Shown here piece after piece: positions 7,770-16,905 of a stretch of DNA of 64,000 nt. The translations under genes were made by a program, and so were the position numbers. The notes below the pieces were generated by a model, which was not told where the DNA came from, made no database searches, and was given only the letters and a program-made list of their open reading frames with translations. This DNA comes from Giardia intestinalis (taxonomy: Eukaryota): NCBI GenBank assembly GCA_000002435.2, contig CM018789.1; one strand, given 5' to 3'. The first letter of the stretch is position 1. The number at the start of each line of letters is the position of its first letter.

Positions 7770-9815
7770 ATGTTCCAACTGATACCCCTGTTCATGGCAA
7801 GCGCGCTCATGGCGCCTTGTCAGCCAGATGGGAATCACCTGACCACTTGCGCACACGAAAAGTGCGAGACGGTCGGGTCAGCCGAGATTTGTACCGAGTG
7901 CAAGGTCGGAGGCGTCCCGGTCGACGGCTTCTGCCGACCCTTCGGCTCCATCCAGGCCGCGGCGGCCGGGTGCACCAAAGCAGACGGGGCTGCTCTCGAC
8001 AAGATGACAGCAACCTGCGAGAAGTGCGGCGACGGGTACTTCCTCTTCATGGGCGGGTGCTACAAGACGAGCCTGTGGTCTGAAGTCTGCACAGCAGCCA
8101 GTAATGGAGTATGTACTACTTGTAATACAAAGAACGGCCTGTTCAAGAACCCGGCTGCAACAGTGACTCCTGGTAACGAGTGCATCCTGTGCTCCGATGC
8201 TACAGATAGAAACGGGGTCATGGGAGTGGAGAATTGTCTCAAGTGCACGGCGCCAGGTGGCAATACAGGAGCAGCCGCGTGCACTGCCTGCAAGGCTGGC
8301 TTTTATGGGTCCGGTCCATGCACAAAGTGTCATGACGATTGTGCTACTTGCAGTGGCGCAGCAAATAATCAGTGCACATCTTGTAAGGCTGGAAAGTACC
8401 TGAAGACCGATACTAACACTTGCGTAGATGCTGGTAGTTGTAATGGAAACACTTATGCTGATCCAGTGACAAGGACATGCAAGGATTCTGCAATAACTGA
8501 TTGCACCACGTGTGAGTACAACCCGGCAACTGGGGGCCCAAAGTGCACAGCCTGTGGTAACAGTAAGAAGGTGAAGACAGCCATCGACGGCGCCACAACG
8601 TGCGTGACGGTTGCATCCGAATGTGTGGATGAGAATCACTTTAAAGATGACGGTAACACTATGTGTGTGCTATGCAGTGATACCAGCGGGTCAGACCCAA
8701 ATAAAGGGGTAGCGCAGTGCAAGACATGTACTAAGAATGGAGCTAACAAGCCTGAATGCAAGACATGCCTCGAAGGGTATGTTCTGAAGGGGTCTGGTGC
8801 TGACGCCATTTGTGAGTCTTGTGGAAACAACTGTGCAGTGTGTACCGCAGCCAATGATATATCGACTTGTACAGGGTGCCTTCCCGGGTACTTCCTAAAA
8901 GCCGAGGGTGGAACAAAAGAGTGCGTCCCGTGTGATGACACAGCCAAAGGTGGTCGTGAAGGCTGTAGTCTATGTTCTAGCAACGGTGGATTTAAGTGCA
9001 CAGATTGTAAAGCGAACTACAGGAAGCAGTCTAATGGAGATGCAGGCGATGACTATACATGTGTGAAGACCTGCGAGGACCCTACTGTGTGTGGGGGGAC
9101 GTCTGGAGCCTGCGATGCCATAGTGATCGATGCTAATGGAAAGGAGCATTATTACTGTTCATACTGTGGAGAGACCAATAAGTTCCCCATTGATGGACTA
9201 TGTACTGATAACAAGGGAACAAATGCTGGGTGTACTGATCATACTTGCAGCTACTGTGCTGCCGGGTTCTTCCTGTACATGGGTGGCTGCTACAAGATTG
9301 ATACAGTACCAGGAAGCTATATGTGCTCCAAATCAACAACAGCAGGTGTCTGTGATACACCCAATGCCAACAATAGATTCTTCGTTGTCCCAAAGGCAAT
9401 AAGTGCCGAACAATCTGTGCTGGCTTGTGGCAACCCATTGGGCACAATTGCAGGCGGTAATGCCTACGTCGGAGTGGAGGGGTGCTCCCAGTGCACGGCC
9501 CCCGACGCTCGAGCTGATGGCGGCATGGCGGTTGCCACGTGCACGGCCTGCGAGGACGGCAAGAAGCCCGGCAAGAGCGGCACCGGGTGTGTGGCGTGCC
9601 CTGATGCTAACTGCAAGAGCTGCACGATGGATGACGTATGTGAAGAGTGTGCTGATGGGTTCAGTCTAGACAATGGTAAGTGTGTGTCTTCTGGCACTAA
9701 TAAGAGCGGCCTTTCTACCGGCGCCATCGCTGGCATCTCCGTCGCAGCCATCGTCGTCGTCGGGGGCCTCGTCGGCTTCCTCTGCTGGTGGTTCATCTGT
9801 CGGGGGAAGGCGTAA
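7770..9815 (+). CDS. Variant-specific surface protein (VSP-1), 681 aa from ATG 7770
   Basis: The protein has dozens of CXXC motifs, GGCY motifs, a C-terminal hydrophobic transmembrane segment and the invariant tail NKSGLSTGAIAGISVAAIVVVGGLVGFLCWWFICRGKA*. The track ORF starts at GTG 7698 inside GC-rich DNA. The first ATG (7770) gives a typical signal peptide MFQLIPLFMASALMA and lies in CTAATGTT (7767-7774), a start-codon-spanning motif shared by all four VSPs here. Stop TAA at 9813-9815. Confidence 0.92.
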   Translation: MFQLIPLFMASALMAPCQPDGNHLTTCAHEKCETVGSAEICTECKVGGVPVDGFCRPFGSIQAAAAGCTKADGAALDKMTATCEKCGDGYFLFMGGCYKTSLWSEVCTAASNGVCTTCNTKNGLFKNPAATVTPGNECILCSDATDRNGVMGVENCLKCTAPGGNTGAAACTACKAGFYGSGPCTKCHDDCATCSGAANNQCTSCKAGKYLKTDTNTCVDAGSCNGNTYADPVTRTCKDSAITDCTTCEYNPATGGPKCTACGNSKKVKTAIDGATTCVTVASECVDENHFKDDGNTMCVLCSDTSGSDPNKGVAQCKTCTKNGANKPECKTCLEGYVLKGSGADAICESCGNNCAVCTAANDISTCTGCLPGYFLKAEGGTKECVPCDDTAKGGREGCSLCSSNGGFKCTDCKANYRKQSNGDAGDDYTCVKTCEDPTVCGGTSGACDAIVIDANGKEHYYCSYCGETNKFPIDGLCTDNKGTNAGCTDHTCSYCAAGFFLYMGGCYKIDTVPGSYMCSKSTTAGVCDTPNANNRFFVVPKAISAEQSVLACGNPLGTIAGGNAYVGVEGCSQCTAPDARADGGMAVATCTACEDGKKPGKSGTGCVACPDANCKSCTMDDVCEECADGFSLDNGKCVSSGTNKSGLSTGAIAGISVAAIVVVGGLVGFLCWWFICRGKA

Positions 9816-10890
9816 GTAGCATCCACTTAGGTAGTAAACGCGTCACTGTACAGCCTACTGCTCTTTCACGATGCCAGTAGACCCTCAAAGCCCGGTTTTT
9901 CCTAAGATCTCACCCCTTCTATGCAGCGTGAAAGAGTAGAAAATCCAAAAATAAGCAGCGGGACCGCCCGGCATGTCTACCGCTCTTCTGCCCTGGAGCC
10001 AGCAGACGACGGCCCAGATGCCCCCGTTGTGATCGGGACCTGTGTGAGCCTTCCCGGCGGCGCCCCGGCCTGGCTGGCGCTCTAGTCTCCTCAACCAGCT
10101 CTGCGCGATCCGGCCCCCCGCCGAACCCTGTGGGCCACCGTACTTCTCCGTGCCTCAATAGCGTCCTCGTCGCCCGAGACCGGCCGGGACGCCCTGGCCG
10201 CTGCAGGAGAGGCGCGTCGAGCGATGATCCTCGACCGAGGCCGCCCCCAGCTCCATGGCCATCTGAACGTGCCCGCAGTGGCCGTGCCGCGGCAGTGGAT
10301 TAGCCCGAGGGCGACCCGTGCCGCCCGATCTACGACCCCTGTTTTTGGATTTCTGCGAAGCAAGGCCTAGTTCTGTCATAGGGCGGCTATAGTAATGGTT
10401 AGCATAGCCCGATGGATACAGAGCCGGAGAAGACGCGGACCGGATCTTGTGCTAACTGATGGCGTGCCGTCTACTGTCTACAGCGCAGAGGTGATGCGTA
10501 GACGCACCTGCCCCCGCTATAGGTGGTCCTTGCAGTACCAGACCCGGTAGAGTGGGCTGCCGTCAGGAGCCAGCACAGCGGAGGGCGCCATGTGCCGATA
10601 GGAGCGTGCCCGGTCGCCCCTGGTTACACCGTAAGCGACGCAAGGGCGGGTAGGCGCGGGTCCCACTGTAGCGACACGTGCAAGACACAGCCGCGCGTCA
10701 TCAGGGCCTCAGAGAGCACTGGCTATGATACGGAAGGGCTACAGCCAGCCCGTTCCAAAGAAGGGGAGCCACACAGGCCCGAGGATCACGTCTCCGGAGA
10801 AGGGAAGTTCTGTCCCGGTGGCCGAGATAATGAAAGGGCGATAACTGGAGTGCCCGCTGACCTGAGCCTGAACAGCTCGTGGCACGCATG
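7858..10890. repeat. Left arm of a 9-kb inverted repeat (3,033 bp; VSP-1 codons about 30-681 plus 1.07 kb of 3' flank)
   Basis: Every ORF in this interval, real or spurious, has an exactly identical reverse-strand twin at the mirror position x -> 24763-x. Examples are 9464..9826(-) = 14937..15299(+), 10155..10379(-) = 14384..14608(+), and 10523..10951(+) = 13872..14240(-) up to its divergence point. Direct base comparison of 9781-9900 with the reverse complement of 14863-14982 is identical. Outer edge: perfect identity begins at AAGTGCGAGACGGTC (7858). About 45 bp of diverged but alignable sequence precede it (7815-7857). Inner edge: perfect to about 10890, then about 40 bp with mismatches and a 2-bp indel. 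Confidence 0.9.
9833..9839 (+). promoter_or_regulatory. AGTAAAC polyadenylation signal within a conserved VSP 3' block (ACTTAGGTAGTAAAC)
   Basis: It lies 18 nt after the VSP-1 stop. The same block ACTTAGGTAGTRAAY follows VSP-3 (19896-19911) and VSP-4 (minus strand, 61523-61538). The mirror copy for VSP-2 is at 14924-14930 (minus). Confidence 0.8.
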
Positions 10891-16800: not shown

Positions 16801-16905
16801 CCGCGGCCTGGATGGAGCCGAAGGGTCGGCAGAAGCCGTCGACCGGGACGCCTCCGACCTTGCACTCGGTACAAATCTCGGCTGACCCGACCGTCTCGCA
16901 CTTAT
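13873..16905. repeat. Right arm of the inverted repeat (mirror of 7858-10890; VSP-2 codons about 30-681 plus 3' flank)
   Basis: See the left arm. Coordinates map as x -> 24763-x. Diverged homology continues to about 16950. Confidence 0.9.

What the first reader, a model, noticed from the sequence alone, without database searches (positions are those of the whole stretch)
7858..16905. 9-kb perfect palindrome: two convergent, sequence-identical VSP genes with a 3-kb unique GC-rich spacer
Two VSP genes face each other tail-to-tail. Their arms are identical over 3,033 bp each (7858-10890 and 13873-16905, mapping as x -> 24763-x). Each arm covers about 1.96 kb of VSP coding sequence plus about 1.07 kb of 3' flank, and the arms enclose 2.98 kb of unique GC-rich DNA. 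Even spurious out-of-frame ORFs are letter-for-letter identical between arms, which implies about 100% nucleotide identity. Giardia is reported to silence all but one VSP through RNAi on VSP double-stranded RNA. In that setting, any read-through past either poly(A) site would make a perfect antisense for the partner copy, or a long hairpin if transcription crosses the spacer. This locus would then be a hard-wired dsRNA source. Identity this high also suggests ongoing gene conversion, or alternatively a collapsed or mis-joined assembly.
Basis: partly seen in the sequence, partly recalled or inferred. Interest (0 to 1): 0.78.

Follow-up and report, generated by a model that had tools for sequence, protein, structure and literature searches.

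The report
Known Giardia inverted VSP gene pair
This is a real 9-kb inverted duplication of a Giardia surface-antigen (VSP) gene, but it belongs to a class of inverted VSP pairs known since 1991, this very pair is mentioned in a 2022 paper, and published RNA data do not single it out as a special source of double-stranded RNA.

Summary
The arms 7860-10890 and 13873-16903 are perfect reverse complements (3,031 bp, 0 mismatches). They enclose 2,982 bp of unique, 64% GC, apparently non-coding DNA.

The window is Giardia intestinalis WB chromosome 1. The two genes are GL50803_00112113 (+) and GL50803_0050375 (-). Both are intact VSPs, arranged tail to tail.

They are not fully identical. The first 30 codons and the promoters differ, and the + copy is a chimera with a 5' end from another VSP lineage. 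Short zones of diverged homology lie beyond both arm ends. This points to a roughly 3-kb gene-conversion tract laid over older homology.

Inverted VSP pairs are a catalogued class (Adam 2010, Xu 2020, Rodriguez-Walker 2022). The 2022 paper names this pair as a "partially duplicated" example with a subtelomere-like spacer.

The dsRNA idea is not supported as a locus-specific function:
- Antisense reads do dominate over this gene in published strand-specific RNA-seq, but they do so for most VSPs.
- Head-to-head pairs show similar antisense levels.
- The tail-to-tail VSP1267 pair can be the dominant expressed antigen.
- GL50803_112113 has been detected as protein.

Verdict: ordinary and already known. 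Interest is low.

The parts
7860..10890 (+). Left arm of the inverted repeat: VSP codons 31-681 plus stop (7860-9815) and 1,075 bp of 3' flank
   Evidence: Perfect reverse complement of 13873-16903, 3,031 bp with 0 mismatches
13873..16903 (-). Right arm of the inverted repeat (mirror of the left arm)
10891..13872 (.). Unique spacer, 2,982 bp, 64% GC, no detectable gene. Its two outermost ~50 bp (10893-10942 / 13823-13872) are still 82% complementary after a 2-bp indel
   Evidence: About 25% symmetry elsewhere. Boundary alignment. No Pfam hit on ORFs or on all six frames. No Rfam or tRNA hit. No VSP remnant with a self-built VSP HMM. [quoted passage not shown]
7770..9815 (+). VSP gene, + copy, 681 aa = KAE8301282.1 / XP_001704836.2 = GL50803_00112113. 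Inr TAATGTT at 7768-7774. It is a chimera: codons 1-30 come from another VSP lineage
   Evidence: Exact protein match. Gene id. Nearest relative switches at the arm boundary
14948..16993 (-). VSP gene, - copy, 681 aa = KAE8301283.1 / XP_037901545.1 = GL50803_0050375. Inr CAATGTT at 16989-16995. Its N-terminus is continuous with its body (the 'native' copy)
7770..7859 (+). Copy-specific 5' coding segment of the + copy (signal peptide plus about 15 mature residues). 57% nt identity to its partner 16904-16993
16904..16993 (-). Copy-specific 5' coding segment of the - copy
9824..9843 (+). Extended VSP polyadenylation signal CACTTAGGTAGTAAACGCGT, starting 9 nt after the stop codon. Its mirror lies at 14920-14939 on the - strand
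   Evidence: Sequence. Listed for both genes in S6 table of 10.1101/2022.03.07.483299
11231..11756 (+). Spacer block colinear (70-75% identity, two pieces) with 60817-61242, the 3' flank of a third VSP (61542..63293, - strand). This indicates a dispersed VSP-flank repeat
9937..9955 (.). AT-rich element TAGAAAATCCAAAAATAAG about 125 nt past the stop (mirror at 14808-14826). With 11951-11966, these are the only AT-rich spots in the 5.1 kb between the ORFs. Possible antisense initiator; this is inference only

Best explanation
This is a genuine tail-to-tail inverted pair of variant-specific surface protein genes on Giardia intestinalis WB chromosome 1 (GL50803_00112113 and GL50803_0050375). It is an atypical member of the well-documented class of inverted VSP pairs. 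The perfect identity of the 3,031-bp arms is best explained by non-reciprocal, arm-to-arm gene conversion, either very recent or recurrent. One tract of about 3 kb was copied from the - copy onto an older, already homologous, inverted VSP locus. It overwrote the + copy from codon 31 to about 1.08 kb past its stop codon. The recipient kept its own promoter, initiator, signal peptide and first 30 codons. The outcome is two intact genes, each with its own upstream region, that encode almost the same mature antigen. The GC-rich, gene-free spacer and flanks are subtelomere-like repeat DNA typical of VSP surroundings. Shown here: the repeat, the gene identities, the chimeric 5' end and the diverged-homology boundaries. 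Inferred: that conversion rather than a fresh duplication produced the identity, its direction, and that the arrangement is a by-product of VSP-family recombination rather than a device selected for a function.
For: 1. The repeat is real and perfect.
2. Both ORFs are complete VSPs with Inr, signal peptide, CXXC repeats, TM-CRGKA tail and the extended poly(A) signal. They match KAE8301282.1 and KAE8301283.1 of WB exactly.
3. Both arm ends lie inside older homology. The 30 codons outside the arms still align at 57% nt identity. The 50 nt inside the inner edge align at 82% after a 2-bp indel. Beyond that there is no similarity. This is the pattern of a conversion tract, not of a fresh duplication into unrelated DNA.
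4. The nearest relative switches at the boundary only for the + copy. Its residues 1-30 are 90% identical to P0009 but 33% to P0008, while residues 31-90 are 100% identical to P0008. The - copy is 93% then 100% identical to P0008 across the same boundary.
5. In Giardia sub-assemblage AI, inferred gene-conversion events have a median length of 3,280 bp (IQR 1.8-5.8 kb), are GC-enriched, and are significantly enriched for VSPs (PMC12669663). This matches the 3.03-kb arm and its GC-rich setting.
6. The class is documented: 14 identical inverted pairs (Adam 2010), 19 pairs (Xu 2020) and 20 pairs (Rodriguez-Walker 2022). The last paper names this pair as a partial duplication whose intergenic region resembles gene-free subtelomeric DNA.
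7. The earlier WB assembly analysed by Adam 2010 lists VSP159 (693 aa, 70.4 kDa, 79 Cys, 27 CXXC), which matches the old model of the + copy exactly. It also lists VSP181 (680 aa, 69.3 kDa, 79 Cys, 27 CXXC, CAATGTT), which matches the - copy apart from one residue in length.
Against: Conversion was not observed directly. A single recent inverted duplication followed by replacement of one 5' end would leave a similar picture.

No long reads could be examined. The tail-to-tail linkage therefore rests on the 2020 PacBio assembly, and short-read polishing could have erased a few real differences between the arms.

The pair does not meet the published description of the identical pairs. There are 5,132 bp between the ORFs rather than 2.2-3.8 kb. 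The identical 3' flank is 1,075 bp rather than 141-572 bp (overall range given, both flanks: 139-729 bp). The 5' regions are not shared.

The link between VSP181 and the - copy is imperfect: the length differs by one residue, and Adam's table pairs VSP181 head-to-head with a 547-aa VSP, whereas the window neighbour is 540 aa.

No orthologous locus could be compared. Synteny with assemblage E ends at window 6284, and short-read contigs stop at about 6339.
Confidence: 0.75

Rival explanations
1. One-off recent inverted duplication. A 3-kb segment (VSP body plus 3' flank) was copied once in inverted orientation. The arms are identical only because too little time has passed for them to diverge. 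No ongoing homogenisation is involved.
For: Adam et al. attribute the identical pairs to 'gene duplication and transposition events', possibly recent. WB has very low sequence diversity, so a recent copy would stay identical. The sequence alone does not show recurrence.
Against: Both arm ends sit inside diverged but alignable sequence: 57% over the outer 90 nt, and 82% over the inner 50 nt with a 2-bp indel. The target was therefore already a homologous inverted VSP locus. Copying onto existing homology is conversion by definition. The + copy keeps a complete, different VSP 5' end that is in frame at the junction.
Confidence: 0.12
2. One reading: the palindrome is a hard-wired source of VSP double-stranded RNA. 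Read-through past either poly(A) site, or one transcript across the spacer folding into a 3-kb hairpin, would feed Dicer/Argonaute silencing of VSPs.
For: In strand-specific RNA-seq (S9 table of 10.1101/2022.03.07.483299), GL50803_00112113 has sense 1.9-4.0 TPM and antisense 173-290 TPM when two-location reads are counted. Antisense reads (3.5-17 TPM, sense 0) also fall in its unique 90-nt 5' segment, so antisense RNA runs the full length of the + copy. Its antisense level is the highest of the 8 tail-to-tail pairs sampled. RNAi components are implicated in VSP control (review PMC8957917).
Against: Antisense exceeding sense is the norm: only 12-20% of VSPs have more sense than antisense transcripts. 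Head-to-head pairs cannot make convergent transcripts, yet they reach the same range (117472/3: 155-351 TPM). Median antisense is 108 for tail-to-tail and 74 for head-to-head, Mann-Whitney p=0.68 on a small sample. Sense and antisense TPM are normalised separately, so the ratio is not absolute. Each gene has the canonical extended VSP poly(A) signal starting 9 nt after its stop. Further AGTRAA hexamers lie in the spacer on both strands. The tail-to-tail VSP1267 pair is the most abundant transcript (17,987 TPM) in a clone expressing it. GL50803_112113 is detected as RNA and protein and is up-regulated in metronidazole-resistant lines. So such pairs are not constitutively self-silencing. 7 of 19-20 pairs are head-to-head, which favours a DNA-level origin for the inverted layout.
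Confidence: 0.08
3. Assembly or polishing artefact: a collapsed or mis-joined repeat, or two nearly identical copies made exactly identical by short-read polishing.
For: Earlier Giardia assemblies broke at such pairs, and the duplicated pairs were once questioned as artefacts. Ten independent short-read contigs end at window 6279-6374, just left of the locus. No reads could be inspected here.
Against: Each arm is joined to unique, non-symmetric sequence on both sides. The + copy's earlier gene model appears as VSP159 in the earlier assembly, and the - copy is probably VSP181 there. The reference was built from PacBio reads with N50 12.7 kb, 10% longer than 20 kb, 3.6 Gb in total. Adam 2010 cites earlier work describing the tail-to-tail vsp1267 pair before any genome assembly (ref. 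17 in PMC2996952). Missed-adapter PacBio palindromes have no 3-kb unique spacer (own knowledge).
Confidence: 0.05

Closest known systems
Giardia VSP 'inverted pairs' / 'duplicated pairs' (vsp1267 prototype; Adam et al. 2010 PMC2996952; Xu et al. 2020 PMC7000408; Rodriguez-Walker et al. 2022, 10.1101/2022.03.07.483299)
   Same: Two VSP genes lie in inverted (here tail-to-tail) orientation. Coding sequence and 3' flank are identical up to an abrupt divergence point. The intervening DNA is kilobase-scale, non-coding and GC-rich. It is the same genome and chromosome as the 1267 and 115797 pairs. The 2022 paper names this pair explicitly.
   Different: The ORFs are not identical: 30 N-terminal codons, the Inr variant (TAATGTT vs CAATGTT) and the upstream DNA differ. 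In the catalogued pairs the ORFs are identical and the 5' upstream is shared. There are 5,132 bp between the ORFs, against 2,526-2,813 bp for the 12 listed -> <- pairs. The identical 3' flank is 1,075 bp, against 318-572 bp for the tail-to-tail pairs. The pair is absent from Adam's Table 5, Xu's Table 2 and the 'duplicated_with' column of S1.
Segmental (mosaic) recombination and gene conversion among VSP genes (Adam 2010; G. muris genome PMC7641422; AI gene-conversion tracts PMC12669663)
   Same: The structure is a mosaic. The 5' 90 aa are P0008-like. The C-terminal ~230 aa are 100% identical to VSP4A1/CRISP-90. The + copy's first 30 aa are P0009-like. The tract length of about 3 kb fits the reported median of 3,280 bp.
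   Different: Here donor and recipient are adjacent and inverted, and the tract also covers more than 1 kb of non-coding 3' flank.
Large spacer-containing palindromes homogenised by arm-to-arm gene conversion, such as the human Y-chromosome ampliconic palindromes P1-P8 (own knowledge, Rozen et al. 2003)
   Same: Arms are kilobases long and near-perfectly identical, with a unique spacer and genes inside the arms. The presumed mechanism is intrachromosomal non-reciprocal conversion.
   Different: The scale is 3 kb against 9 kb-1.45 Mb. Conversion has not been demonstrated here by cross-lineage comparison. This is an analogy of mechanism only, not homology.
Endogenous hairpin or convergent-transcript siRNA loci, such as Drosophila or mouse hp-esiRNA loci (own knowledge)
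   Same: An inverted repeat with a spacer could in principle be transcribed into a long hairpin.
   Different: There is no evidence of a transcript spanning both arms. Each arm carries its own gene, promoter and poly(A) signal. Antisense levels are no different from those of non-convergent VSP pairs.

Membership tests
[quoted passage not shown] | C-terminal transmembrane segment followed by the invariant CRGKA tail | tested here: met
   Both ORFs end ...AIAGISVAAIVVVGGLVGFLCWWFICRGKA*
[quoted passage not shown] | Cysteine-rich ectodomain with many CXXC motifs; Pfam VSP domain | tested here: met
   79 Cys and 27 CXXC in 681 aa. PF03302 is precomputed for the matching database protein. A self-built VSP HMM control recognises the neighbouring VSPs
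[quoted passage not shown] | N-terminal signal peptide, Inr PyAATGTT at the start codon, and extended poly(A) signal ACTYAGRTAGTRAAY just after the stop | tested here: met
   TAATGTT at 7768-7774 and CAATGTT at 16989-16995. ACTTAGGTAGTAAAC at 9825-9839 and its mirror. Hydrophobic N-termini MFQLIPLFMASALMA / MLLTAFYIVVSSFAA. Both genes are in the VSP sheet of the S1 table and in the S6 poly(A)-signal table
Identical inverted VSP pairs (Adam 2010 / Xu 2020 / Rodriguez-Walker 2022) | Two VSP genes adjacent in inverted orientation (tail-to-tail or head-to-head) | tested here: met
   + gene 7770-9815 and - gene 14948-16993 are convergent. The protein accessions are consecutive: KAE8301282.1 / KAE8301283.1
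Identical inverted VSP pairs (Adam 2010 / Xu 2020 / Rodriguez-Walker 2022) | The two ORFs are identical in nucleotide and amino-acid sequence | tested here: not met
   Codons 31-681 are identical. Codons 1-30 share only 57% nt identity. 'duplicated_with' is '-' for both genes in the S1 table
Identical inverted VSP pairs (Adam 2010 / Xu 2020 / Rodriguez-Walker 2022) | 2-4 kb of non-coding DNA between the ORFs (2,526-2,813 bp for -> <- pairs) | tested here: not met
   5,132 bp between the stop codons (9816-14947). Only the unique spacer (2,982 bp) falls in that range
Identical inverted VSP pairs (Adam 2010 / Xu 2020 / Rodriguez-Walker 2022) | Flanks identical up to a point of abrupt divergence 139-729 nt from the ORF | tested here: inconclusive
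   An abrupt loss of identity is present but lies 1,075 nt past the stop, outside the published range. It is followed by about 50 nt at 82%
Identical inverted VSP pairs (Adam 2010 / Xu 2020 / Rodriguez-Walker 2022) | [quoted passage not shown] | tested here: not met
   150 nt upstream of the two ATGs align at 44% with gaps, which is no better than random. One side is 66% GC; the 150 nt upstream of the - copy read as AT-richer, and its whole upstream region (16994-18244) is 58% GC
Partially duplicated VSP pairs (Rodriguez-Walker 2022) | Adjacent VSPs sharing part of their sequence, with a related intergenic region; this pair is named as the example | tested here: met
   [quoted passage not shown] The sequences in S1 match the window ORFs. 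I measure 5,132 nt
Hairpin / convergent-transcription siRNA source locus | RNA spanning both arms, or overlapping convergent transcripts, demonstrated | not testable with these tools
   Only per-gene TPM tables are available.
Hairpin / convergent-transcription siRNA source locus | Antisense RNA enriched relative to comparable genes that are not convergent | tested here: not met
   Antisense medians are 108 (tail-to-tail), 74 (head-to-head) and 34 (single), with p=0.68 for tail-to-tail vs head-to-head. Head-to-head pair 117472/3 equals this locus. The sample is small and taken from a published table
Hairpin / convergent-transcription siRNA source locus | Dicer-sized small RNAs mapping densely to both strands of the arms | not testable with these tools
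   No small-RNA read data were accessible. Liao et al. 2014 (PMC4191773) is not held
Palindromes maintained by arm-to-arm gene conversion | Arm-to-arm identity far above the divergence of the same arms between lineages | not testable with these tools
   No orthologous locus could be retrieved. The 90%-identity protein cluster holds only WB sequences. P15 lacks the locus

The most novel reading that the evidence does not exclude
The pair might work as a cis-encoded antisense or hairpin generator. Transcription from the - copy, or from the AT-rich element about 125 nt past each stop, would run through the partner arm. This would give a perfectly matched dsRNA that seeds Dicer/RdRP silencing of this VSP, and, through the conserved 3' end, of other VSPs. 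The unusually long arms and the two different promoters could make this pair a stronger trigger than the canonical pairs. The very low sense and comparatively high antisense signal at this gene, including over its unique 5' 90 nt, is compatible with this but does not demonstrate it.
Probability: 0.07. Interest if true: 0.65.

Novelty: already known. Interest (0 to 1): 0.2.

Why it matters
How Giardia expresses one VSP out of about 130-300 is still unresolved, and the inverted pairs were called 'an interesting, but cryptic observation' (Adam 2010). If such pairs were built-in dsRNA sources, genome architecture would be tied to the RNAi model of antigenic variation.

The evidence gathered here points the other way. 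The layout looks like a by-product of roughly 3-kb gene-conversion events that shuffle and homogenise VSP segments.

The modest value of this locus is as a clean, datable example. It has exact tract ends, a chimeric recipient, and two different promoters driving nearly the same antigen. That makes it a natural test of whether the 5' region determines which copy is expressed.

It is also a caution for read mapping. Only 90 nt distinguish the two genes, so unique-mapping RNA-seq reports almost nothing for them.

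Tried and rejected
1. Exact-protein contig look-ups, meant to test the junctions in independent assemblies, all found nothing. They covered both VSP copies, the cluster representative, the old 693-aa model, the 540-aa neighbour and a spacer ORF.

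2. Cross-isolate synteny through the left neighbour Prp8. Ten short-read contigs all stop at window 6279-6374. The assemblage E (P15) contig loses similarity at 6284 and has no VSP there. No orthologous palindrome could be compared.

3. Hidden gene or RNA in the spacer. Pfam found nothing on ORFs of 90 aa or more or on all six frames of 10700-14060. Rfam at E<=1 gave only a sub-threshold bacterial leader. There are no tRNAs.

4. Degenerate third VSP in the spacer. The self-built VSP HMM gave a best E of 0.13 at about 12.9 kb, and tblastn gave E=1.0 at the same place. Neither is significant.

5. Identifying the pair with '115797/d115797' in Xu's Table 2 (682 aa). Rejected: that gene is TSP11, with 2,649 bp between its copies.

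6. The name 'VSP4A1/CRISP-90' for this gene. The deposited VSP4A1 is only 68% identical overall, although 100% identical over the last ~230 aa.

7. A first free-end-gap alignment of the boundaries was uninformative and was redone.

8. Liao et al. 2014 on endo-siRNAs could not be read.

Full report
**1. Observation.** Under the map x -> 24763-x the window holds one unbroken run of perfect complementarity, 7860-10890 against 13873-16903. It is 3,031 bp long with no mismatch. Gapped BLAST extends the match inward to 10926/13839 (99.87%, 2 gap positions). After a 2-bp indel, about 50 nt more are 82% complementary (10893-10942 / 13823-13872). The remaining spacer shows chance-level symmetry of about 25%. 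Each arm holds 1,956 bp of coding sequence and 1,075 bp of 3' flank. The spacer (10891-13872) is 2,982 bp and 64% GC, against 49.5% for the whole window.

**2. Identity of the locus.** Both long ORFs end in ...CRGKA* and are cysteine-rich, with 79 Cys and 27 CXXC motifs. The two 681-aa products match KAE8301282.1/XP_001704836.2 and KAE8301283.1/XP_037901545.1 exactly. Both are from Giardia intestinalis WB C6, on the 1,485,438-bp chromosome of the 2020 PacBio assembly. The gene identifiers are GL50803_00112113 (+ copy) and GL50803_0050375 (- copy) on NC_051856.1, chromosome 1. Each gene has:
- the VSP initiator, TAATGTT at 7768-7774 and CAATGTT at 16989-16995;
- a hydrophobic signal peptide;
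- the extended VSP poly(A) signal, CACTTAGGTAGTAAACGCGT at 9824-9843 with its mirror at 14920-14939.

**3. The genes are not identical.** Identity starts inside the coding sequence at codon 31. The first 30 codons align at only 57% nucleotide identity. Upstream of the ATGs nothing aligns: one side is 66% GC, while the 150 nt upstream of the - copy read as AT-richer and its whole upstream region is 58% GC.

Comparison with other VSPs shows which copy is the recombinant.
- The - copy is 93% identical to WB VSP P0008 over residues 1-30 and 100% over residues 31-90. It is continuous across the boundary.
- The + copy is 90% identical to P0009 but only 33% to P0008 over residues 1-30. It is then 100% identical to P0008 over residues 31-90.

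The + copy is therefore a chimera. It has its own promoter, signal peptide and 30 codons, fused in frame at the conserved KCETVG motif to sequence identical to the - copy. The shared body is itself a mosaic. Its last ~230 residues are 100% identical to VSP4A1/CRISP-90, and its middle only 27-53%.

**4. What lies between the genes.** No gene could be detected.
- Pfam found nothing on ORFs of 90 aa or more, or on all six frames of 10700-14060.
- Rfam found no family and there are no tRNAs.
- A VSP HMM built from 82 homologues found no significant VSP remnant (best E=0.13), although it scored the neighbouring VSPs at 1e-168.

Spacer block 11231-11756 is colinear at 70-75% with 60817-61242, the 3' flank of a third VSP at 61542..63293. 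So part of the spacer belongs to a dispersed VSP-flank repeat. [quoted passage not shown]

**5. Is it an artefact?** I could not inspect reads, but four points argue against it.
- Each arm joins unique, asymmetric sequence at both ends.
- Adam et al.'s table of the earlier WB assembly lists VSP159 (GL50803_112113; 693 aa, 70.4 kDa, 79 Cys, 27 CXXC, TAATGTT). My calculation for the old 693-aa model reproduces these values exactly. The table also lists VSP181 (680 aa, 69.3 kDa, 79 Cys, 27 CXXC, CAATGTT), which fits the - copy except for one residue in length. They are numbered apart in the table, and numbering follows contig order. This fits the authors' remark that such pairs terminated contigs.
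- The 2020 reference used 3.6 Gb of PacBio reads with N50 12.7 kb and 10% longer than 20 kb.
- Adam 2010 cites earlier work describing the vsp1267 tail-to-tail pair before any genome assembly (ref. 17 in PMC2996952).

One caveat remains. Adam lists VSP181 head-to-head with a 547-aa VSP, whereas the window neighbour is 540 aa. The VSP181 assignment is therefore probable, not certain.

**6. Mechanism.** Both arm ends lie within older, diverged homology rather than at a junction with unrelated DNA. The nearest relative changes at the outer boundary only in the + copy. The simplest reading is a non-reciprocal conversion tract of about 3.03-3.08 kb, copied from the - copy onto a pre-existing inverted VSP locus.

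This agrees with population-genomic work on sub-assemblage AI, to which WB belongs. There, inferred gene-conversion events have a median of 3,280 bp (IQR 1.8-5.8 kb), are GC-enriched, and are strongly enriched for VSPs (PMC12669663). GC-biased conversion could also contribute to the 62-66% GC of the flanks and spacer; that is my inference.

The sequence does not say whether conversion is recurrent or happened once. Recombination between the arms with crossover would invert the spacer without harming any gene, which long reads could test.

**7. Comparison with what is known.** Inverted VSP pairs are an established feature of Giardia genomes.
- Adam 2010 reports 14 identical pairs, 10 of them tail-to-tail, with 2.2-3.8 kb between the ORFs and identical 3' flanks of 141-572 nt (overall flank range 139-729 nt).
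- Xu 2020 reports 19 pairs, 12 of them -> <-, at 2,526-2,813 bp.
- Rodriguez-Walker 2022 reports 20 pairs, all sharing their 5' upstream sequence.
- G. muris has seven pairs.

This pair is in none of those tables. Its ORFs and 5' regions differ, the ORFs are 5,132 bp apart, and the identical flank is 1,075 bp. It is, however, cited by name in the 2022 paper as an example of partial duplication. That paper gives 5,172 nt and writes 'head to head', a term it also applies to the -> <- 1267 pair. The locus is therefore already described. What this analysis adds is the exact tract ends, the chimeric nature of the + copy and the direction of transfer.

**8. The dsRNA hypothesis.** Published strand-specific RNA-seq (S9 table; sense and antisense TPM are normalised separately) gives these values for GL50803_00112113:
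- sense 1.9-4.0 and antisense 173-290 TPM when reads mapping to two places are counted;
- sense 0 and antisense 3.5-17 TPM for uniquely mapping reads, which can only come from its 90-nt private segment.

Because the arms are inverted, a read that is antisense to one copy is antisense to both, so this signal is genuinely antisense. Antisense RNA over the locus is therefore real.

It is not distinctive, for several reasons.
- The authors report that only 12-20% of VSPs have more sense than antisense transcripts.
- In the rows I could retrieve, median antisense is 108 for 8 tail-to-tail pairs, 74 for 4 head-to-head pairs and 34 for 6 single VSPs. The tail-to-tail versus head-to-head comparison gives p=0.68.
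- The head-to-head pair 117472/3 (155-351 TPM) equals this locus.
- The VSP1267 tail-to-tail pair reaches 17,987 sense TPM in the clone that displays it.
- GL50803_112113 is detected as RNA and protein and rises in metronidazole-resistant lines.
- Each gene has a canonical poly(A) signal. Additional AGTRAA hexamers lie in the spacer on both strands: 11773 on +, and 13049 and 12983 on -.

An alternative antisense source is the only AT-rich element near each gene end (9937-9955 and its mirror 14808-14826). Short AT-rich sequences act as promoters in Giardia (own knowledge). This was not tested.

**9. Verdict.** The repeat is real and the gene-conversion reading is well supported. The regulatory reading is unsupported and not specific to this locus. 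The class, and this particular pair, are already in the literature. Interest is low. The residual novel possibility, a cis-encoded dsRNA trigger, gets about 7%.

Noticed in passing
window 6279-6374 (mostly 6339): Ten independent short-read (Logan) contigs carrying the Prp8 gene all end here, about 117 nt past the Prp8 stop. This is exactly where GC rises from about 45% to about 66%. It suggests that the GC-rich DNA upstream of the + VSP is repeated elsewhere, allelically variable, or poorly covered by Illumina.
   Followed up: partly
L012 (Giardia P15, ACVC01000200.1) 16992-25182; window 6284: Synteny with assemblage E stops 62 nt after the Prp8 stop. P15 has about 8 kb of GC-rich, gene-poor DNA with no VSP. 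It has its own small inverted repeat (19977-20123 / 24048-24180, 83-91%, about 4 kb apart) and a 93-nt tandem repeat at 19241-19573.
   Followed up: partly
window 7770-9815 / 14948-16993 compared with P0002, P0008, P0009: The shared VSP body is itself a mosaic. It is 100% identical to WB VSP P0008 over residues 31-90, and 100% identical to VSP4A1/CRISP-90 (P0002) over the last ~230 residues. The middle is only 27-53% identical to either.
   Followed up: yes
window 18272-19894 (+) and 19952-21046 (+): A 540-aa VSP lies head-to-head with the - copy, 1,278 bp apart. Its values match VSP183/GL50803_13727 in Adam's table. It is followed 57 nt later by a truncated VSP fragment that lacks the TM-CRGKA end. 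Together they form a short 'linear array' with a pseudo-VSP.
   Followed up: partly
window 60817-61242 and 61542-63293 (-): A third VSP gene (ends CRGKA) has a GC-rich 3' flank that is 70-75% identical, in two colinear blocks, to spacer 11231-11756 of the palindrome.
   Followed up: partly
window 9937-9955, 10343-10353, 11951-11966, 14808-14826: These are the only AT-rich spots in the 5.1 kb between the ORFs. AAATCCAAAAA (9942-9952) has an inverted partner TTTTTGGATTT at 10343-10353 within the same arm. They are possible antisense or bidirectional initiators.
   Followed up: no
literature vs window 9816-14947: Rodriguez-Walker et al. give 5,172 nt between GL50803_00112113 and GL50803_0050375 and call the pair 'head to head'. 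The window gives 5,132 nt and a tail-to-tail layout. Adam's table pairs VSP181 with a 547-aa VSP, whereas the window neighbour is 540 aa.
   Followed up: partly
S9 table of 10.1101/2022.03.07.483299 (row GL50803_00115787): A gene whose id is adjacent to the 115797 tail-to-tail pair in the sorted table shows antisense 1,194-1,763 TPM against sense 1.5-4 TPM. This is far above any VSP sampled.
   Followed up: no
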